From Escherichia coli (lineage in GTDB: Bacteria; Pseudomonadota; Gammaproteobacteria; Enterobacterales; Enterobacteriaceae), in NCBI RefSeq assembly GCF_965641715.1, contig NZ_OZ282453.1: a stretch of 64,000 nucleotides of DNA. The stretch is one strand, 5' to 3'. How positions within the stretch are numbered: position 1 is the first letter of the stretch; each line of letters begins with the position of its first letter. The position numbers are program-made. Of this stretch, positions 18,001 through 24,000 are shown one piece after another.

Positions 18001-21000
18001 GTTTACCGATAGCGTTTGTGCTGGTGGCGTTGAGCCTGGTGTATTGGTATGACAGACAATATTAAACCCGCCGTGGCGCAACACCACGGCGGGCTCACAT
18101 TACTGCTTCAGAGTAGCAAATGCCTGAATGATGGCATCGATTTGCTCACGACTGTGGGCAGCGTTTACGCTACAGCGCAGCAGCGTGATGCCTGCAGGCG
18201 CGGCAGGTGGCAGGATAAGATTCACATAAACGCCCAGCGAAATAAGCTCGCGCCAGATGCGTAAACCGTCCTCTTTCGAACCGATTATTACCGGTACTAC
18301 CGGACTAATATGTGAACTTAACTCATAACCCAGTTTTTGCAGACCGTCATACAGATGGTTGGCGTTATCCATCAGCTTTTGCCGCAGCTCTGGTTGTGTG
18401 GCAATGGTTCTTAACGACGAGCGCACGGTCGCAATGCAGGACGGAGAAGGAGAGGCGGTAAAAATATACGGGCGGCTGCCGTAGCGCAGCACTTCCATCG
18501 CTTCCGAACCGACAGCAAAACCGCCAATCGAGGCCAGACTTTTACTGAAGGTACCAACGATAATATCCACATCATCTTCAACGCCAACGGCTTCAGCCAG
18601 TCCGCGCCCCGTTGCGCCTAACACGCCAAACGAATGCGCTTCATCGACAATCAAATAACCACCGAGACGACGTTTGATATCAACAATTTCCGCCAGCGGC
18701 GCAACGTCACCGAGCATGCTGTAGATGCCCTCAACGATGATAATCGCCTCTTTCGCCCGTTCACCGAGGCGAACCATGCGCCGTTCCAGATCTTTAGCAT
18801 CGTTATGGCGGAAACGAATAATTTCCGCGCCACCGAGAGAACAGGCGTCATAAATACTGGCGTGGCTGTCGGCATCCAGTAATACCACGGCGTTATGGTC
18901 GGCAAGTGCGCTGATGACGCCTAAATTAGCGGTATAACCGGTTGAAAAAACGATAGCGGTAGGGCGATTGAAAAACTCGGCAATCTCTTTCTCTAACGCC
19001 AGGTGCGGCGCATAACTGCCGTTTGCCATACGAGAACCGGTGGTGCCGGTGCCTTGGGCCGCTAACGCTGCCTGACCTTCGCTGATGGCATCATGATTAA
19101 AGGTTAAACCGAGATAATTATTGGTCCCGGCCAGAATCACTTTTTTATTGCCGATCCGGCCTTCGGTGGCGGAATACACTTCATCAATACAGGTGCCAAA
19201 CGGTGTTAACCCGTTGTCACTAAATTGCAGACGCTCGCCAGCAAGGCGCGCATATTTATCGTATAGCCCCATTATTTATTCTCCAGCCATGGAAGTAGAG
19301 TTTCCATTAATTGCGCAGGGGTTTTGACATCCAGCAGAATATTAATAGGAATGGAAATATCGAATCTGTCTTCCAGCATCATTAAGAGATCCATCACTTT
19401 GATCGACTCCAGGCCAAGATCGTTGACGAGATCGCTGTCGGGCTTAATTTCCACACCGTTTTCGACCAAATCCTGTAAACAGGAAAGGATGTAATCCATT
19501 ACTATTTCACGATTTACCATAGAAACGTTAACACACCTTTAAACAAGACAATCAAAATAGCCCGTTGCGTAATGCGTGTTCCAGGCTAATCCCGGGAAAC
19601 CAATTAATATCTTCAGAAATACGGTTATTACTTGCCGACCAGTCGGCGTGGGTTAATTCACGAATTTTCGAGCGGGTCAGCATAGGTTCTTTACCTGCCA
19701 GGCGACTCAACGCAGTACTGATATCCGCAAGGCAGGTGAGTACCGGCAGAGGAATGCCAACCATCCGCACAGAACCACAACGGGCTTCGGCGGCAAGCTG
19801 TCGTACGCGTTGCCAGTCATAGCCGCCAGCGATGCCATCGCATAATTCATAGGTTTGCGTCTGTACAGTTTCGGCGCTTAACCACTGACCCACTGCTTGC
19901 GCAAAATCGGTGACGTGCAGGAAAGAGAGCTGTGTATCTGGTGCACCAAGTCGTGGCAGCAGGCCGCGCAGCATCCAGTCAAACAGCGGTTTTAACTCTT
20001 TATCGCCGGGACCATACACGGCTGTCGGGCGAAAAACGCCCAGCGTAATTTCGTCAGCCATTGCCGTCAGCCGTTGTTCGGCGACGTGTTTGGAATTTGC
20101 GTACCAGGAGAGTTCGGGATGGCGCGCCGCCAGCGAAGAGATAAACAGAAAACGTTGGCAAAAGCCGCTCTCTTTTGCCGCTTGCATCAGGTGCAGGCTG
20201 CCGTCAACGTTACAGCGAGTAAAGACATCCTCTTTGTGTCCACGCACTTGCCCGGCGCAATGGACCACAGCACCGGCACCAGCAACCAGCTCGCTAAGTG
20301 AATGTGTATCTTCCAGCGAACCGCGCACCCAGGTGAGATTGTCATTGACGTGAGCGCGGGCAGTACGCGTCAATGCGCGAACGTGAAAGCCGCGGGCGAG
20401 CAGGTTATCGATAATATATTTACCGATAAACCCGGTAGCGCCCGTCACCGCGACAGTTTGATTCATGCCAGGGATTCCTGCACATGAAGACTGGCAGCAT
20501 AAGCCTTCTGATAACGTTTTTTCGCTTCCGCACGGGCAGGCTTGCCGGAGGACGTTCGGGGAATACTGTGGGGCGGCAACAGATCGATAGCCGCTGTTAC
20601 GCCAAATTCGCTTTGGATCCGTGCTGCCAGCGCGTGGATAAGCTGCCCGCGACGTTCTTCATCGCTGATCCGACACTGGATCTGCAAAATGATTTTTTCC
20701 TGGGCGGTAACAAAAGCAATCGCATCGCCAGAATGAATTTCCGGTTCCTGTTCCGCAATATATTCAATATCCTGCGGCCAGATATTACGGCCACGAATAA
20801 TAATCAGATCTTTAATGCGTCCGGTGACATACAGATAACCGTCCAGCAGATAACCGAGGTCCCCGGTGTCTAACCAGCCCGTCGCGGCAATCTCGTCTTG
20901 TGAAACCTGGTCGCCAAAGTAACCGCTCATCAGGCTAGGGCCGGAGATGCAAATATGGCCTACCACACGTTCCGCGACAGGTATACCTGCTTCATTGCGG

Positions 21001-24000
21001 ATTTCAATGCCATGTTCCGGCAACGCTTTACCGCAGTTGACGAAAGTCGATACGGCGCGTGTCTCTGCACCCGGCGCGACGGCTTTACCCTGATATTCGA
21101 GGATGTCGCGATCCACTTCGTTAACCACAACCCCGGAGGCTTCATCAGAGAAGCTGACAGCCAGCGCATTTTCTGCCAGTCCGTAGCACGGCATGAAAGT
21201 TTTATCGTCAAAGTTAACCTGACGGAAACATTCAGCGAATTGATGGAGTTGTTCTGCGGAGATGGGTTCTGCACCAATACCAGCGACGCGCCAGCAGGAA
21301 AGATCCAGTTCAGCGAGATCTTTTTCATTCACGCGGCGCTGGCACAATTCATAGCCAAACGGCGGCGCAACGGAAACGGTGCCGCGATTTTTACTGATCA
21401 ATTTAAGCCATTGCAGAGGACGCATGGCAAAATCCTGAGTGCGCAAATAATCTACTGAAAGCTGCGTGGCGACCGGGGTCAGGAGAAAGCCGACCAGTCC
21501 CATATCATGGTAGAAAGGCAGCCAGGAGACGCAGCGGTCGCCAGGGCGTAATTTAATGCCGTCGTGGCTTATAGCACGTAGATTAGCCATCACTTCGCGA
21601 TGGGTGATAATGACGCCACGGGGAAAACGGGTGCTGCCGGAGGTGTACTGGAGGTAGGCGATATCGTTCGGAACTGGACGCTGGAGCGCAACATCGGCTT
21701 CCGGTAATGCCTTATACCAGGCGTGGCTTAATACATGCAATTCGGGGTTGTTATGCGTGGCGGCATTGACCAGCGGCAACCACTCATCACCAGTGATAAT
21801 GGCAGCGGGCTGGCAACTTGCCAGTAAACCCTGCAGTTTGGCGCTCCAGGAATCCCGCTGACCGACGCCCATTGGAATCGCCAACGGGACGGCGACTAAG
21901 CCGGCATACTGGCAGGAAAAAAAAGCCTCTACGAACCCGCTACTGGTTTCGGCAATCAGTGCCACGCGATCGCCTTTTTTCAGGTTCAGCGATAACAACC
22001 GCTTCGCACCAGCTTCGGCACGCGCTTTTAACGTCTGATATTCCAGTTGATCTTCAAGTTGGCAACGTCTGTCATAAAAATTCATTCCAGCGCTACTCAG
22101 AGCGGCGTAGTCCAAAGCATCAACCAGCGTTGGAAAATCGGCATAGCGCATAGGTAGGGAATGCGTAAAGATTTTATTAGACATATACACCACGAAAAAA
22201 TTGGATATCAAAAATAAAATGACAATAATGCGGTGGATTATATAGGTATAAAAGATAAATGAGATAGTATTTTCATTGGTGTGATATTGAACATTGATTA
22301 AAATAATGCTTTAAATCTTAACTCTGTTTATTGTGAATAATATTTAATTTATGAATATATTAAGATAATGCGCTGGTGGGTCGCATTAAATCCACAATAG
22401 TCATGTTGATCGGCTAACGGTGGCGCTGGTGTATCGTAATTATTCATAAATATTATTTTATTTTTCCTTATATTCATTGCGTGGATAGTTAAGGTACCGT
22501 CCGTTGCTGTTTATTTTCAGCATTAATTATTTGTTATCCACTAAGCTATGGAACGCGATCTGCTGATGATTAAAATTGAAAAAGTAATAAATAAAAATGA
22601 CTTAAAGGCATTTATCGCTTTTCCGTCATCACTTTATCCCGACGATCCAAACTGGATACCCCCTTTATTCATTGAACGCAACGAGCATTTGTCTGTGAAA
22701 AATCCGGGGACGGACCATATCATCTGGCAGGCGTGGGTGGCAAAAATAGCCGGGCAGATAGTTGGGCGTATTACCGCGCAAATCGATACCTTACACCGCG
22801 AGCGTTACGGCGAAGATACCGGTCATTTCGGCATGATTGACGCCATTGATGATCCGCAGGTTTTTGCCGCGTTGTTTGGCGCAGCGGAAGCGTGGTTGAA
22901 GTCACAAGGTGCAAGTAAGATCAGCGGGCCTTTCAGCCTGAATATCAATCAGGAAAGCGGATTACTGATTGAAGGTTTTGACACACCACCCTGTGCGATG
23001 ATGCCACACGGCAAACCGTGGTATGCCGCGCATATTGAACAACTGGGTTATCACAAAGGCATTGATTTACTGGCGTGGTGGATGCAGCGAACCGATCTCA
23101 CTTTCTCTCCGGCGCTAAAAAAACTGATGGATCAGGTGCGCAAAAAGGTGACCATTCGCTGCATCAATCGTCAGCGGTTTGCCGAAGAGATGCAGATCCT
23201 GCGTGAGATTTTCAACTCTGGCTGGCAGCACAACTGGGGATTTGTGCCGTTTACCGAACATGAATTCGCGACCATGGGCGACCAACTTAAATATCTGGTG
23301 CCGGACGATATGATCTACATCGCTGAGATTGATTCTGCACCCTGCGCGTTTATTGTCGGCTTGCCGAACATCAACGAGGCGATTGCCGATCTGAACGGAT
23401 CTCTCTTTCCCTTCGGCTGGGCAAAATTGCTGTGGCGTTTGAAAGTCAGCGGTGTGCGAACTGCGCGAGTACCGCTGATGGGCGTGCGCGACGAGTATCA
23501 GTTCAGCCGCATCGGCCCGGTGATTGCGCTGTTATTGATTGAAGCCTTACGCGATCCGTTTGCCCGCCGGAAGATCGATGCGCTGGAGATGTCATGGATC
23601 CTCGAAACCAATACAGGCATGAATAACATGCTGGAACGCATTGGGGCAGAGCCGTACAAGCGTTACCGATTGTATGAAAAGCAGATTTAATACCAGCTAA
23701 CTCTGGTTCATCTCCAGCGGCACCGCCGAGCGAATCAAATGGTGGCCTTCCAGCTCGATATCGTGGAGATTCTTTTTCACGGTCCGCACATGATCGCGTG
23801 CTGCGCGCTGGGCGACGTGCGGCAGCCGCTGCAACACCGCGTTGTAGATCCGCGCATGCTGGCGATCGATCTGCTTTTTTTGCTGTGGTCGATGGTAGAG
23901 ATTATTTACGCTGGCAAACACTGAATTAAACATCAGATCGGTCAATGATTGCAGCGTAAACACCAGCACCTGATTGTGAGAAGCCTGACAAATGGCGAGA

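What the first reader, a model, noticed from the sequence alone, without database searches (positions are those of the whole stretch)
18100..23690. Sphingolipid-type lipid biosynthesis module (FAAL, reductase, ACP, SPT-like synthase, plus GNAT YghO)
Four minus-strand genes are translationally coupled: FAAL stop overlaps the SDR start (ATGA), ACP stop overlaps the synthase start. The oxoamine synthase carries GTFSKS, the PLP-lysine context I associate with serine palmitoyltransferase rather than BioF or Kbl. The FAAL has YTSGSTRFPRGV, the ACP has a DLGLES phosphopantetheine site, and the reductase has GATGFIG with YxxxK. The divergent 380-aa GNAT protein (YghO) shares the control region. This set (spt-acp-reductase-acyl-ACP synthetase plus a GNAT ceramide synthase) is, as I recall, the five-gene toolkit described for ceramide synthesis in Caulobacter. 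E. coli is not regarded as a sphingolipid producer and I know of no product assigned to this locus. Alternative products include an N-acyl amino-alcohol lipid or a CAI-1-like alpha-aminoketone signal.
Basis: partly seen in the sequence, partly recalled or inferred. Interest (0 to 1): 0.85.

Follow-up and report, generated by a model that had tools for sequence, protein, structure and literature searches.

The report
E. coli sphingolipid (ceramide) synthesis locus
This stretch really does encode the five-gene bacterial ceramide pathway next to a dedicated lipid exporter, but the locus is already published, partly tested in the laboratory and named in RefSeq, so it is a correct rediscovery and not a new finding.

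Summary
Five intact genes sit at 18100-23690: a fatty acyl-AMP ligase, an SDR reductase, a small ACP and an alpha-oxoamine synthase on the minus strand, and the 380-aa YghO transcribed divergently. All the motifs and both gene overlaps are present.

- The synthase passes NCBI's curated serine palmitoyltransferase model (599 bits, cutoff 500) and fails the BioF, Kbl, ALAS and CqsA models.
- YghO has no Pfam hit but folds as a tandem GNAT. It is 44% identical to the Caulobacter ceramide synthase.
- In 54 of 57 genomes, its homologs lie within 10 kb of spt, the ligase or LptF/G paralogs.

It is not new.
- Padilla-Gómez et al. 2022 (PMC9386255) described this locus in E. coli BL21(DE3). They showed that its ACP, ligase and Spt together make 3-oxo-sphinganine.
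- The window's Spt and ACP are 100% identical to those proteins.
- The ligase is crystal structure 3PBK, and RefSeq already labels the gene "spt".
- About 75% of complete E. coli genomes carry the locus. K-12 retains only the yghO end of it.

What remains open is whether E. coli makes a sphingolipid natively, and what the neighbouring genes (yghQRST, a CHAD-like protein, YtfJ) add.

The parts
18100..19272 (-). spt: serine palmitoyltransferase, a PLP-dependent alpha-oxoamine synthase (390 aa)
   Evidence: NF047599 scores 599 bits, above its cutoff of 500. Best PDB match is S. paucimobilis SPT 2jg2 at 375 bits. His159, Asp231, His234, Lys265 and Arg390 equivalents are conserved. The protein is 100% identical to BL21(DE3) ECD_02854, which forms 3-oxo-sphinganine (PMC9386255).
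19272..19520 (-). acpR: specialised acyl carrier protein (82 aa) with a DLGLES phosphopantetheine site
   Evidence: ACP HMM hits are all below the housekeeping-ACP cutoffs. The protein is 100% identical to BL21 ECD_02853, which was shown to carry 4'-phosphopantetheine (PMC9386255). Its stop overlaps the spt start as TAATG.
19552..20466 (-). cerR/epi-like extended SDR (304 aa) with GATGFIG and YANSK; presumed 3-keto reductase of the pathway
   Evidence: Best PDB matches are NDUFA9-type SDRs. It is 37% identical (E 1e-46) to the SDR next to spt in Caulobacter sp. and 34% identical to CC_1164. The activity of the E. coli protein has not been tested.
20463..22184 (-). aasR: fatty acyl-AMP ligase / acyl-AcpR synthetase (573 aa from the ATG at 22184; RefSeq start 22151)
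   Evidence: NF006624 scores 872 bits, above its cutoff of 600. It matches PDB 3pbk 'Fatty Acyl-Adenylate Ligase' at 1293 bits over residues 1-573. It is 98.3% identical to BL21 ECD_02851, which is needed together with AcpR and Spt of E. coli for 3-oxo-sphinganine formation. Its stop overlaps the SDR start as ATGA.
22185..22547 (.). AT-rich divergent intergenic (control) region between aasR and yghO
   Evidence: GC is about 40-45%. The promoter scan found only weak consensus matches, no more than expected in shuffles. There is no Rfam hit. Regulation is unknown.
22548..23690 (+). yghO: bacterial ceramide synthase (bCerS/Aca) ortholog with a tandem-GNAT fold (380 aa)
   Evidence: No Pfam or NCBIfam hit. 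The AF2 model has pLDDT 95.5, and Foldseek's top matches are tandem GNATs. It is 44% identical (E 4e-106) to the Caulobacter sp. homolog. Of 57 homolog loci with full flanks, 54 carry spt, the FAAL or LptF/G paralogs within 10 kb. The activity of the E. coli protein has not been tested.
15919..18065 (+). lptF2 (15919-16989) and lptG2 (16986-18065): second copies of the LPS-exporter permeases, converging on spt; presumed sphingolipid exporter
   Evidence: TIGR04407 scores 318 and TIGR04408 scores 309, both above cutoff. They are co-located with YghO homologs in 36 of 57 loci. The Caulobacter paralogs are genetically tied to spt and bind LptB, and the E. coli UTI89 locus is drawn in Fig. 2B of bioRxiv 10.64898/2026.04.12.717747.
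18063..18097 (.). GC-rich hairpin (16 pairs) between the convergent lptG2 and spt genes
   Evidence: Terminator-like site from the scan. It was not tested further.
10728..15888 (.). Accessory genes that travel with the locus in Enterobacterales: yghT (10728-11420, -), yghS (11594-12307, +), yghR (12339-13097, +), yghQ MOP-flippase-like (13143-14492, +), a 274-aa CHAD-like protein (14492-15316, +) and a YtfJ-family periplasmic protein (15325-15888, +)

Best explanation
The region is the E. coli sphingolipid (dihydroceramide) biosynthesis locus, an ortholog of the Caulobacter crescentus five-gene set.

Proposed mechanism:
1. The fatty acyl-AMP ligase (AasR) activates a free fatty acid and loads it onto the dedicated carrier protein AcpR.
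2. Spt condenses acyl-AcpR with L-serine, with loss of CO2, to give 3-oxo-sphinganine. Steps 1 and 2 have been shown experimentally for the BL21 proteins. The window's Spt and AcpR are identical to those, and its AasR is 98% identical.
3. YghO, a tandem-GNAT ceramide synthase, N-acylates the long-chain base.
4. The NDUFA9-like SDR reduces the 3-keto group. Steps 3 and 4 are inferred from orthology to Caulobacter bCerS and CerR, and the order follows the Caulobacter model.
5. The adjacent LptF2/LptG2 pair, probably powered by the housekeeping LptB, extracts the lipid from the inner membrane for delivery to the outer membrane. This is inferred from the Caulobacter work.

Whether and when the chromosomal locus is expressed in E. 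coli, and what head group the final lipid carries, is unknown.
For: - **Spt identity.** It passes the curated Spt equivalog HMM, while BioF, Kbl, CqsA and ALAS fall below their cutoffs. PDB ranks Sphingomonas SPTs first, and the PLP lysine, His/Asp/His and Arg390 are conserved.
- **Match to tested proteins.** The window's Spt and ACP are 100% identical to BL21 ECD_02854 and ECD_02853. The ligase is 98.3%, YghO 98.9% and the SDR 95.7% identical to their BL21 counterparts.
- **Published experiments (PMC9386255).** AcpR of E. coli carries phosphopantetheine. Co-expressing AasR, AcpR and SPT of E. coli forms 3-oxo-sphinganine. SPT of E. coli incorporates 14C-serine and prefers acyl-AcpR. The five genes ECD_02850-02854 are described as the dihydroceramide set.
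- **Ligase.** It corresponds to crystal structure 3pbk.
- **YghO.** Tandem-GNAT model and 44% identity to the Caulobacter homolog.
- **SDR.** NDUFA9-like and 37% identical to the Caulobacter SDR.
- **Genomic linkage.** Of 57 full-flank loci, 38 have spt, 30 have all four partner genes, and 54 have spt, the FAAL or LptF/G within 10 kb.
- **Selection.** dN/dS is 0-0.135 against the BL21 allele for every gene where it could be computed; acpR has no nucleotide differences.
- **Prevalence.** The locus is intact in 4067 of 5426 complete E. coli genomes and annotated 'spt' in RefSeq.
- **Export.** LptF2/G2 have a transport role in Caulobacter, and the E. coli UTI89 locus is drawn alongside.
Against: - No paper in the searched library reports a sphingolipid from unmodified E. 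coli.
- In PMC9386255 the host was BL21(DE3), which carries the locus. Yet the empty-vector and single-gene controls showed no 3-oxo-sphinganine. The native locus therefore appears silent in LB at 30 °C. This is my inference from their text.
- The YghO and SDR proteins of E. coli have not been assayed.
- The order of acylation and reduction is disputed in the literature.
- YghO matches no Pfam or NCBIfam model, so its assignment rests on orthology, predicted fold and gene linkage.
Confidence: 0.85

Rival explanations
1. The locus is a silent genomic relic in E. coli. The enzymes work when over-expressed, but the chromosomal genes are never expressed at a meaningful level, so E. coli makes no sphingolipid in nature.
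For: Empty-vector BL21(DE3), which carries the locus, gave no detectable 3-oxo-sphinganine. No report of a native E. coli sphingolipid was found. K-12-type strains retain only the yghO end of the locus (H11). The promoter region is AT-rich, with no strong sigma-70 match.
Against: All genes are intact in about 75% of complete genomes. dN/dS is at most 0.135, and Spt has 15 synonymous and 0 non-synonymous differences from BL21. The whole unit is conserved at 60-88% protein identity across several genera of Enterobacterales. This pattern is that of genes in use, not decaying ones.
Confidence: 0.1
2. The pathway makes a diffusible amino-ketone or N-acyl amino-alcohol signal (CAI-1-like) or a sulfonolipid (from cysteate), and not a membrane sphingolipid.
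For: The alpha-oxoamine synthase family includes CqsA and cysteate acyltransferases, and both appear further down the hit lists.
Against: CqsA model 221 bits against a cutoff of 428. CqsA structures score 125 bits and cysteate-C-fatty acyltransferase 205 bits, against 375 bits for SPT. The identical BL21 enzyme uses L-serine to give 3-oxo-sphinganine. A ceramide-synthase ortholog and a lipid exporter of the LPS type sit next to it.
Confidence: 0.03
3. YghO is not part of the pathway. It is an unrelated acetyltransferase (for example a protein lysine acetyltransferase) that merely sits beside the operon.
For: It has no family HMM hit. It survives in K-12-type strains without the rest of the locus (H11). 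It was included in a K-12 screen for lysine acetyltransferases.
Against: Homologs are 44% identical to the Caulobacter protein that the literature identifies as the ceramide synthase. Homologs lie within 10 kb of spt, the FAAL or LptF/G in 54 of 57 diverse genomes. The divergent arrangement with the FAAL gene is conserved from E. coli to Pseudomonas.
Confidence: 0.02

Closest known systems
Caulobacter crescentus ceramide synthesis genes: CC_1162 spt, CC_1163 acpR, CC_1164 epi/cerR, CC_1165 aasR, CC_1154 aca/bCerS (CCNA_01212-01226 region)
   Same: The same five protein families. Identities to the E. coli BL21 proteins are 53% (Spt), 41% (AcpR), 34% (SDR), 42% (AasR) and 44% (bCerS). acpR lies directly upstream of spt, and LptF2/G2 paralogs are in the locus.
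   Different: In E. coli the five genes form one compact divergent unit. In Caulobacter, bCerS lies about 8 genes away from spt. In a related Caulobacter sp. genome, no homolog of yghQ/R/S/T or the CHAD-like protein was detected within 10 kb of the bCerS homolog, a stretch that includes spt (L077). E. coli shows no homologs of the Caulobacter head-group genes in the window stretch examined. LptC2 is reported as restricted to Caulobacter.
E. coli BL21(DE3) ECD_02850-ECD_02854 (Padilla-Gómez et al. 2022, PMC9386255)
   Same: This is the same locus. The 13-kb stretch 10728-23690 is 97.5% identical at the DNA level. Spt and AcpR are identical in protein sequence, and the other proteins are 95.7-99.7% identical.
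   Different: The window carries a rarer allele. Only 8 of 4591 E. coli records match 18100-23690 at 99% or more. For the neighbouring glc genes, 543 records match at that level.
Sphingomonas paucimobilis / S. wittichii serine palmitoyltransferase (PDB 2jg2, 2x8u)
   Same: Full-length alignment at 372-375 bits, with the same PLP-lysine context (GTFSKS) and catalytic His/Asp/His/Arg.
   Different: Arg378 of the S. paucimobilis enzyme is Leu here. It is Leu, Ile, Val or Phe in all 51 Spt homologs linked to YghO-like genes, including the one from Caulobacter sp..
LptB2FG lipopolysaccharide exporter
   Same: LptF2 and LptG2 pass the LptF and LptG equivalog models.
   Different: They are second copies, placed beside spt. 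No LptB, LptC or LptA is encoded in the locus. In Caulobacter the paralogs are linked to sphingolipid, not LPS, and share the housekeeping LptB.

Membership tests
Bacterial serine palmitoyltransferase (alpha-oxoamine synthase, PLP fold type I) | Scores above the curated family threshold and above the sister families (BioF, Kbl, ALAS, CqsA) | tested here: met
   NF047599 scores 599 bits against a cutoff of 500. All sister models fall below their cutoffs. The PDB ranking puts SPT first by 170 bits.
Bacterial serine palmitoyltransferase (alpha-oxoamine synthase, PLP fold type I) | PLP-binding lysine and catalytic His159, Asp231, His234 and Arg390 (S. paucimobilis numbering) | tested here: met
   All are conserved in the alignment to 2jg2 and in the 50-51 linked homologs scored at each position. 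Arg378 is Leu, as in the whole clade.
Bacterial serine palmitoyltransferase (alpha-oxoamine synthase, PLP fold type I) | Condenses L-serine with an acyl thioester to form 3-oxo-sphinganine | not testable with these tools
   Reported for BL21 ECD_02854 in PMC9386255. That protein is 100% identical to the window protein.
AcpR (specialised ACP for sphingolipid synthesis) | Small ACP encoded directly upstream of spt, with a serine that carries 4'-phosphopantetheine | tested here: met
   An 82-aa ORF whose stop overlaps the spt start, with a DLGLES motif and ACP HMM hits. Phosphopantetheinylation of the identical BL21 protein is reported in PMC9386255.
AasR / fatty acyl-AMP ligase | FAAL-type adenylating enzyme that scores above the family threshold | tested here: met
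   NF006624 scores 872 bits against a cutoff of 600. It corresponds to PDB 3pbk 'Fatty Acyl-Adenylate Ligase'.
AasR / fatty acyl-AMP ligase | Loads its cognate AcpR and not CoA or AcpP | not testable with these tools
   In vivo, AasR of E. coli works with AcpR of E. coli but not with AcpR of Caulobacter (PMC9386255). Direct biochemistry was done only for the Caulobacter enzyme.
bCerS / Aca (bacterial ceramide synthase) | Full-length homology to the Caulobacter enzyme | tested here: met
   44% identity, E 4e-106, over residues 8-380 against the Caulobacter sp. homolog located about 7 kb from spt. Table S2 of PMC9386255 gives 44% identity and E 1e-107 against CC_1154.
bCerS / Aca (bacterial ceramide synthase) | GNAT acyltransferase fold | tested here: met
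   AF2 model with pLDDT 95.5. Foldseek's top hits are tandem GNATs (2wpw, 5kf1, 7q3a, MshD) at E about 1e-15 and TM 0.57-0.62. There is no Pfam hit by sequence.
bCerS / Aca (bacterial ceramide synthase) | N-acylates the long-chain base | not testable with these tools
   I found no assay of E. coli YghO in the literature I read.
CerR / Epi (bacterial ceramide reductase) | NDUFA9-like extended SDR with an NAD(P)-binding GxxGxxG and a catalytic YxxxK, encoded with spt | tested here: met
   GATGFIG and YANSK are present. The best PDB hits are NDUFA9-type proteins. It is 37% identical to the Caulobacter sp. SDR beside spt.
CerR / Epi (bacterial ceramide reductase) | Reduces the 3-keto group of the oxidised ceramide or long-chain base | not testable with these tools
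   Inferred from Caulobacter genetics. The E. coli protein has not been assayed.
LptF2/LptG2 sphingolipid exporter | A second LptF/LptG pair encoded in the sphingolipid locus | tested here: met
   Both pass TIGR04407 and TIGR04408. They lie adjacent to and convergent with spt. Pairs like this are linked to YghO homologs in 36 of 57 loci. Transport itself has not been tested in E. coli.

The most novel reading that the evidence does not exclude
Most E. coli strains (but not K-12) make, under conditions not yet identified, a modified sphingolipid that has never been described. In this reading its head group is built by the Enterobacterales-specific neighbours: three P-loop kinase-like paralogs (YghR/S/T) and a CHAD-like basic helical protein, which points to phosphate chemistry. 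The lipid would then be flipped by the MOP-family protein YghQ and exported by LptF2/G2. The lipid would be a new outer-membrane component of the best-studied bacterium.
Probability: 0.25. Interest if true: 0.65.

Novelty: already known. Interest (0 to 1): 0.22.

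Why it matters
The locus matters as biology. It implies that about three quarters of sequenced E. coli carry a complete, selectively maintained sphingolipid pathway with its own exporter. This includes pathogens, the commensal reference strain ATCC 25922 and the laboratory workhorse BL21. 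The standard model strain K-12 lacks most of it.

As a finding it adds little. The gene set, its orthology to Caulobacter, the activity of the first three proteins, the crystal structure of the ligase and the link to LptF2/G2 are all in the literature. RefSeq already names the gene spt.

The useful residue is a list of open points:
- no native product has been demonstrated in E. coli;
- no inducing condition is known;
- the conserved accessory genes (yghQRST, the CHAD-like protein, YtfJ) have no assigned role.

Tried and rejected
- **Pfam and NCBIfam on YghO** returned nothing. Its fold had to come from a predicted structure.
- **Pfam on the 274-aa protein** returned nothing useful.
- **The promoter/terminator scan of 17900-23800** found no more sites than in shuffles, so I make no claim about regulation.
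- **Rfam on 10000-25000** found no RNA family.
- **The repeat search of the divergent intergenic region** found only short AT-rich chance-level repeats.
- **The Arg378-to-Leu change in Spt** could have indicated a different amino-acid substrate. I rejected this because all 51 linked Spt homologs, including the one from Caulobacter sp., have a hydrophobic residue there.
- **Literature searches** for native E. coli sphingolipids and for yghQRST function found nothing. Stankeviciute et al. 2022 and Olea-Ozuna et al. 2021 are not in the held library, so I cite them only through papers that summarise them.
- **A first guess at the BL21 coordinates** missed the locus. The second attempt found it.
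- **A formal phylogenetic tree of alpha-oxoamine synthases** was not built. I judged the curated HMM cutoffs, the PDB ranking and the published enzymology sufficient.

Full report
**What is in the sequence**

The ORF list and the minus-strand read-out show five intact genes at the stated coordinates:
- an alpha-oxoamine synthase (18100-19272, 390 aa)
- an 82-aa acyl carrier protein (19272-19520)
- a 304-aa SDR (19552-20466)
- a fatty acyl-AMP ligase (20463-22184 from the ATG; the mechanical ORF runs to a TTG at 22211 and RefSeq uses 22151)
- on the plus strand, the 380-aa YghO (22548-23690), followed by glcC

All the quoted motifs are present: GTFSKS, YTSGSTRFPRGV, DLGLES, GATGFIG and YANSK. 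The ligase stop and SDR start share ATGA. The ACP stop and synthase start share one base (TAATG). The SDR and ACP genes are separated by 31 nt, so two of the three junctions overlap. The intergenic region between the ligase gene and yghO is about 360 nt and AT-rich.

**What the proteins are**

*Synthase.* It matches NCBI's curated serine palmitoyltransferase equivalog NF047599 at 599 bits (cutoff 500). It scores below the cutoffs of BioF, Kbl, the CqsA-type autoinducer synthase and ALAS. Against solved structures, the Sphingomonas SPTs come first (375 and 372 bits). Cysteate acyltransferase, Kbl, BioF, ALAS and CqsA follow at 205, 204, about 183, 171 and 125 bits. The PLP lysine and the His/Asp/His/Arg390 residues are conserved. 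Arg378 of the S. paucimobilis enzyme is Leu here, but it is hydrophobic in all 51 linked homologs, including the one from Caulobacter sp., so this is a clade feature and not an anomaly.

*Ligase.* It passes the FAAL model (872 bits, cutoff 600). It corresponds to crystal structure 3pbk, 'Fatty Acyl-Adenylate Ligase' (1293 bits over residues 1-573).

*SDR.* Its best structural relatives by sequence are NDUFA9-type proteins. The literature says the same of Caulobacter CerR.

*YghO.* It has no Pfam or NCBIfam hit. A model built on 47 homologs has pLDDT 95.5, and its best PDB matches are tandem-GNAT acyltransferases.

**Independent test of the link between YghO and sphingolipid genes**

A profile of YghO homologs retrieved 80 loci from species-representative genomes. 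They range from Enterobacterales and Pseudomonas to Nitrosomonas, Nitrospira, Roseovarius, Acidocella, Sphingobium and Caulobacter. I searched each locus with the window's proteins. Of the 57 loci with full 10-kb flanks:
- 38 carry spt
- 30 carry spt, the ACP, the SDR and the ligase together
- 36 carry an LptF/LptG pair
- 54 carry at least one of spt, the ligase or LptF/G

The divergent ligase-SDR-ACP-spt / yghO arrangement is conserved with nearly constant spacing from E. coli to Pseudomonas. YghO is 44% identical (E 4e-106) to the homolog that lies about 7 kb from spt in a Caulobacter genome. The SDR is 37% identical (E 1e-46) to the SDR beside that spt.

**What is already published**

Padilla-Gómez et al. 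2022 (PMC9386255) describe this locus in E. coli BL21(DE3) as ECD_02850 (yghO/aca), 02851 (aasR), 02852 (epi), 02853 (acpR) and 02854 (spt). They report that:
- AcpR of E. coli carries phosphopantetheine;
- co-expression of AasR, AcpR and SPT of E. coli produces 3-oxo-sphinganine;
- SPT of E. coli incorporates labelled serine and prefers acyl-AcpR;
- the five dihydroceramide genes are clustered only in Caulobacter and E. coli BL21 among the genomes they compared.

I fetched the BL21 locus and compared it with the window. Spt and AcpR are 100% identical in protein sequence. The ligase is 98.3%, YghO 98.9% and the SDR 95.7% identical.

A 2026 preprint (10.64898/2026.04.12.717747) shows that LptF/LptG paralogs in the Caulobacter sphingolipid locus can be deleted only without spt and that they bind LptB. 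It also draws the E. coli UTI89 locus for comparison. RefSeq annotates the gene as 'spt: serine palmitoyltransferase' in E. coli genomes.

**Distribution and selection**

The 5.6-kb region is present at 80% coverage or more in 4067 of 5426 complete E. coli genomes. Some strains retain only the yghO end, as in the K-12 lineage. Against BL21, dN/dS is 0 to 0.135 for every gene where it could be computed (acpR has no nucleotide differences). Spt has 15 synonymous and no non-synonymous changes. These genes are being maintained.

The window's allele is uncommon. Only 8 records match at 99% or more and most are near 96.7%. For the flanking glc genes, 543 records match at 99% or more.

**Mechanism**

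The best-supported account is as follows.
1. The ligase adenylates a fatty acid and loads AcpR.
2. Spt condenses acyl-AcpR with serine to give 3-oxo-sphinganine.
3. YghO adds the N-acyl chain.
4. The SDR reduces the 3-keto group.
5. LptF2/G2, with LptB, export the lipid.

The first two steps are shown experimentally for identical or near-identical proteins. The rest is inferred from orthology. The order of acylation and reduction follows the Caulobacter model and is still debated.

**What is not known**

I found no report of a sphingolipid from unmodified E. coli. In PMC9386255 the host, BL21(DE3), carries the locus, yet the empty-vector controls showed no 3-oxo-sphinganine. I infer that the locus is silent under those conditions.

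The neighbours that travel with the unit in Enterobacterales have no assigned role:
- three P-loop kinase-like paralogs (YghT/S/R)
- a MOP-flippase-like protein (YghQ)
- a YtfJ-family periplasmic protein

In a betaproteobacterial MAG, homologs of YghQ, YghR and YghS lie between spt and the YghO homolog (L027). This argues that they belong to the pathway.

**Verdict**

The finding is already known. Interest is low for novelty, with a modest residue in the unanswered question of the native product and the accessory genes.

Noticed in passing
window 15919-18065: A second LptF/LptG pair converges on spt. RefSeq names the pair plainly 'LPS export ABC transporter permease LptF/LptG' because both pass the TIGR04407/04408 cutoffs. 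By context they are the sphingolipid-locus paralogs (LptF2/G2), so the annotation is probably misleading.
   Followed up: yes
[not shown]
   Followed up: partly
window 10728-13097: Three paralogous P-loop proteins (YghT, YghS, YghR). RefSeq names YghT and YghS 'dTMP kinase' (YghR is 'hypothetical protein' or 'ATP-binding protein'), yet all three score only 22-32 bits against a cutoff of 83. They travel with the spt unit in several genera and in a betaproteobacterial MAG (L027). The kinase name is probably wrong, and a role in head-group chemistry is possible.
   Followed up: partly
window 13143-14492: A full-length YghQ (449 aa, weak MOP-flippase hit) sits in the locus. The Caulobacter literature states that no sphingolipid flippase has been identified, so this is a candidate.
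   Followed up: no
window 18100-23690 versus 24712-28500: This window carries a rare allele of the sphingolipid locus. Only 8 E. coli records match it at 99% or more, against 543 for the adjacent glc genes. Divergence from BL21 is uneven: acpR 100%, spt 98.7%, SDR 95.4% and the 274-aa gene 95.9% nucleotide identity. This suggests a recombination mosaic.
   Followed up: partly
window 22151-22211: The ligase start codon is ambiguous. RefSeq uses the ATG at 22151 (562 aa). The crystallised protein 3pbk and the FAAL HMM fit the ATG at 22184 (573 aa). The mechanical ORF reaches a TTG at 22211.
   Followed up: partly
window 19042-19062 region of spt (protein residue 354): The residue equivalent to Arg378 of S. 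paucimobilis SPT is Leu here. It is Leu, Ile, Val or Phe in all 51 Spt homologs linked to YghO-like genes, so Arg378 appears to be a peculiarity of Sphingomonas.
   Followed up: yes
L002 11354-11716 (Serratia-type contig): In the Serratia version of the locus, a small prokaryotic diacylglycerol-kinase-family gene (DAGK_prokar, 120 aa) lies directly downstream of the yghO homolog. No LptF/G pair was detected within 10 kb of it.
   Followed up: no
window 18063-18097: A 16-bp GC-rich hairpin lies between the convergent lptG2 and spt genes. It looks like a shared terminator but lacks a clear T-run.
   Followed up: no
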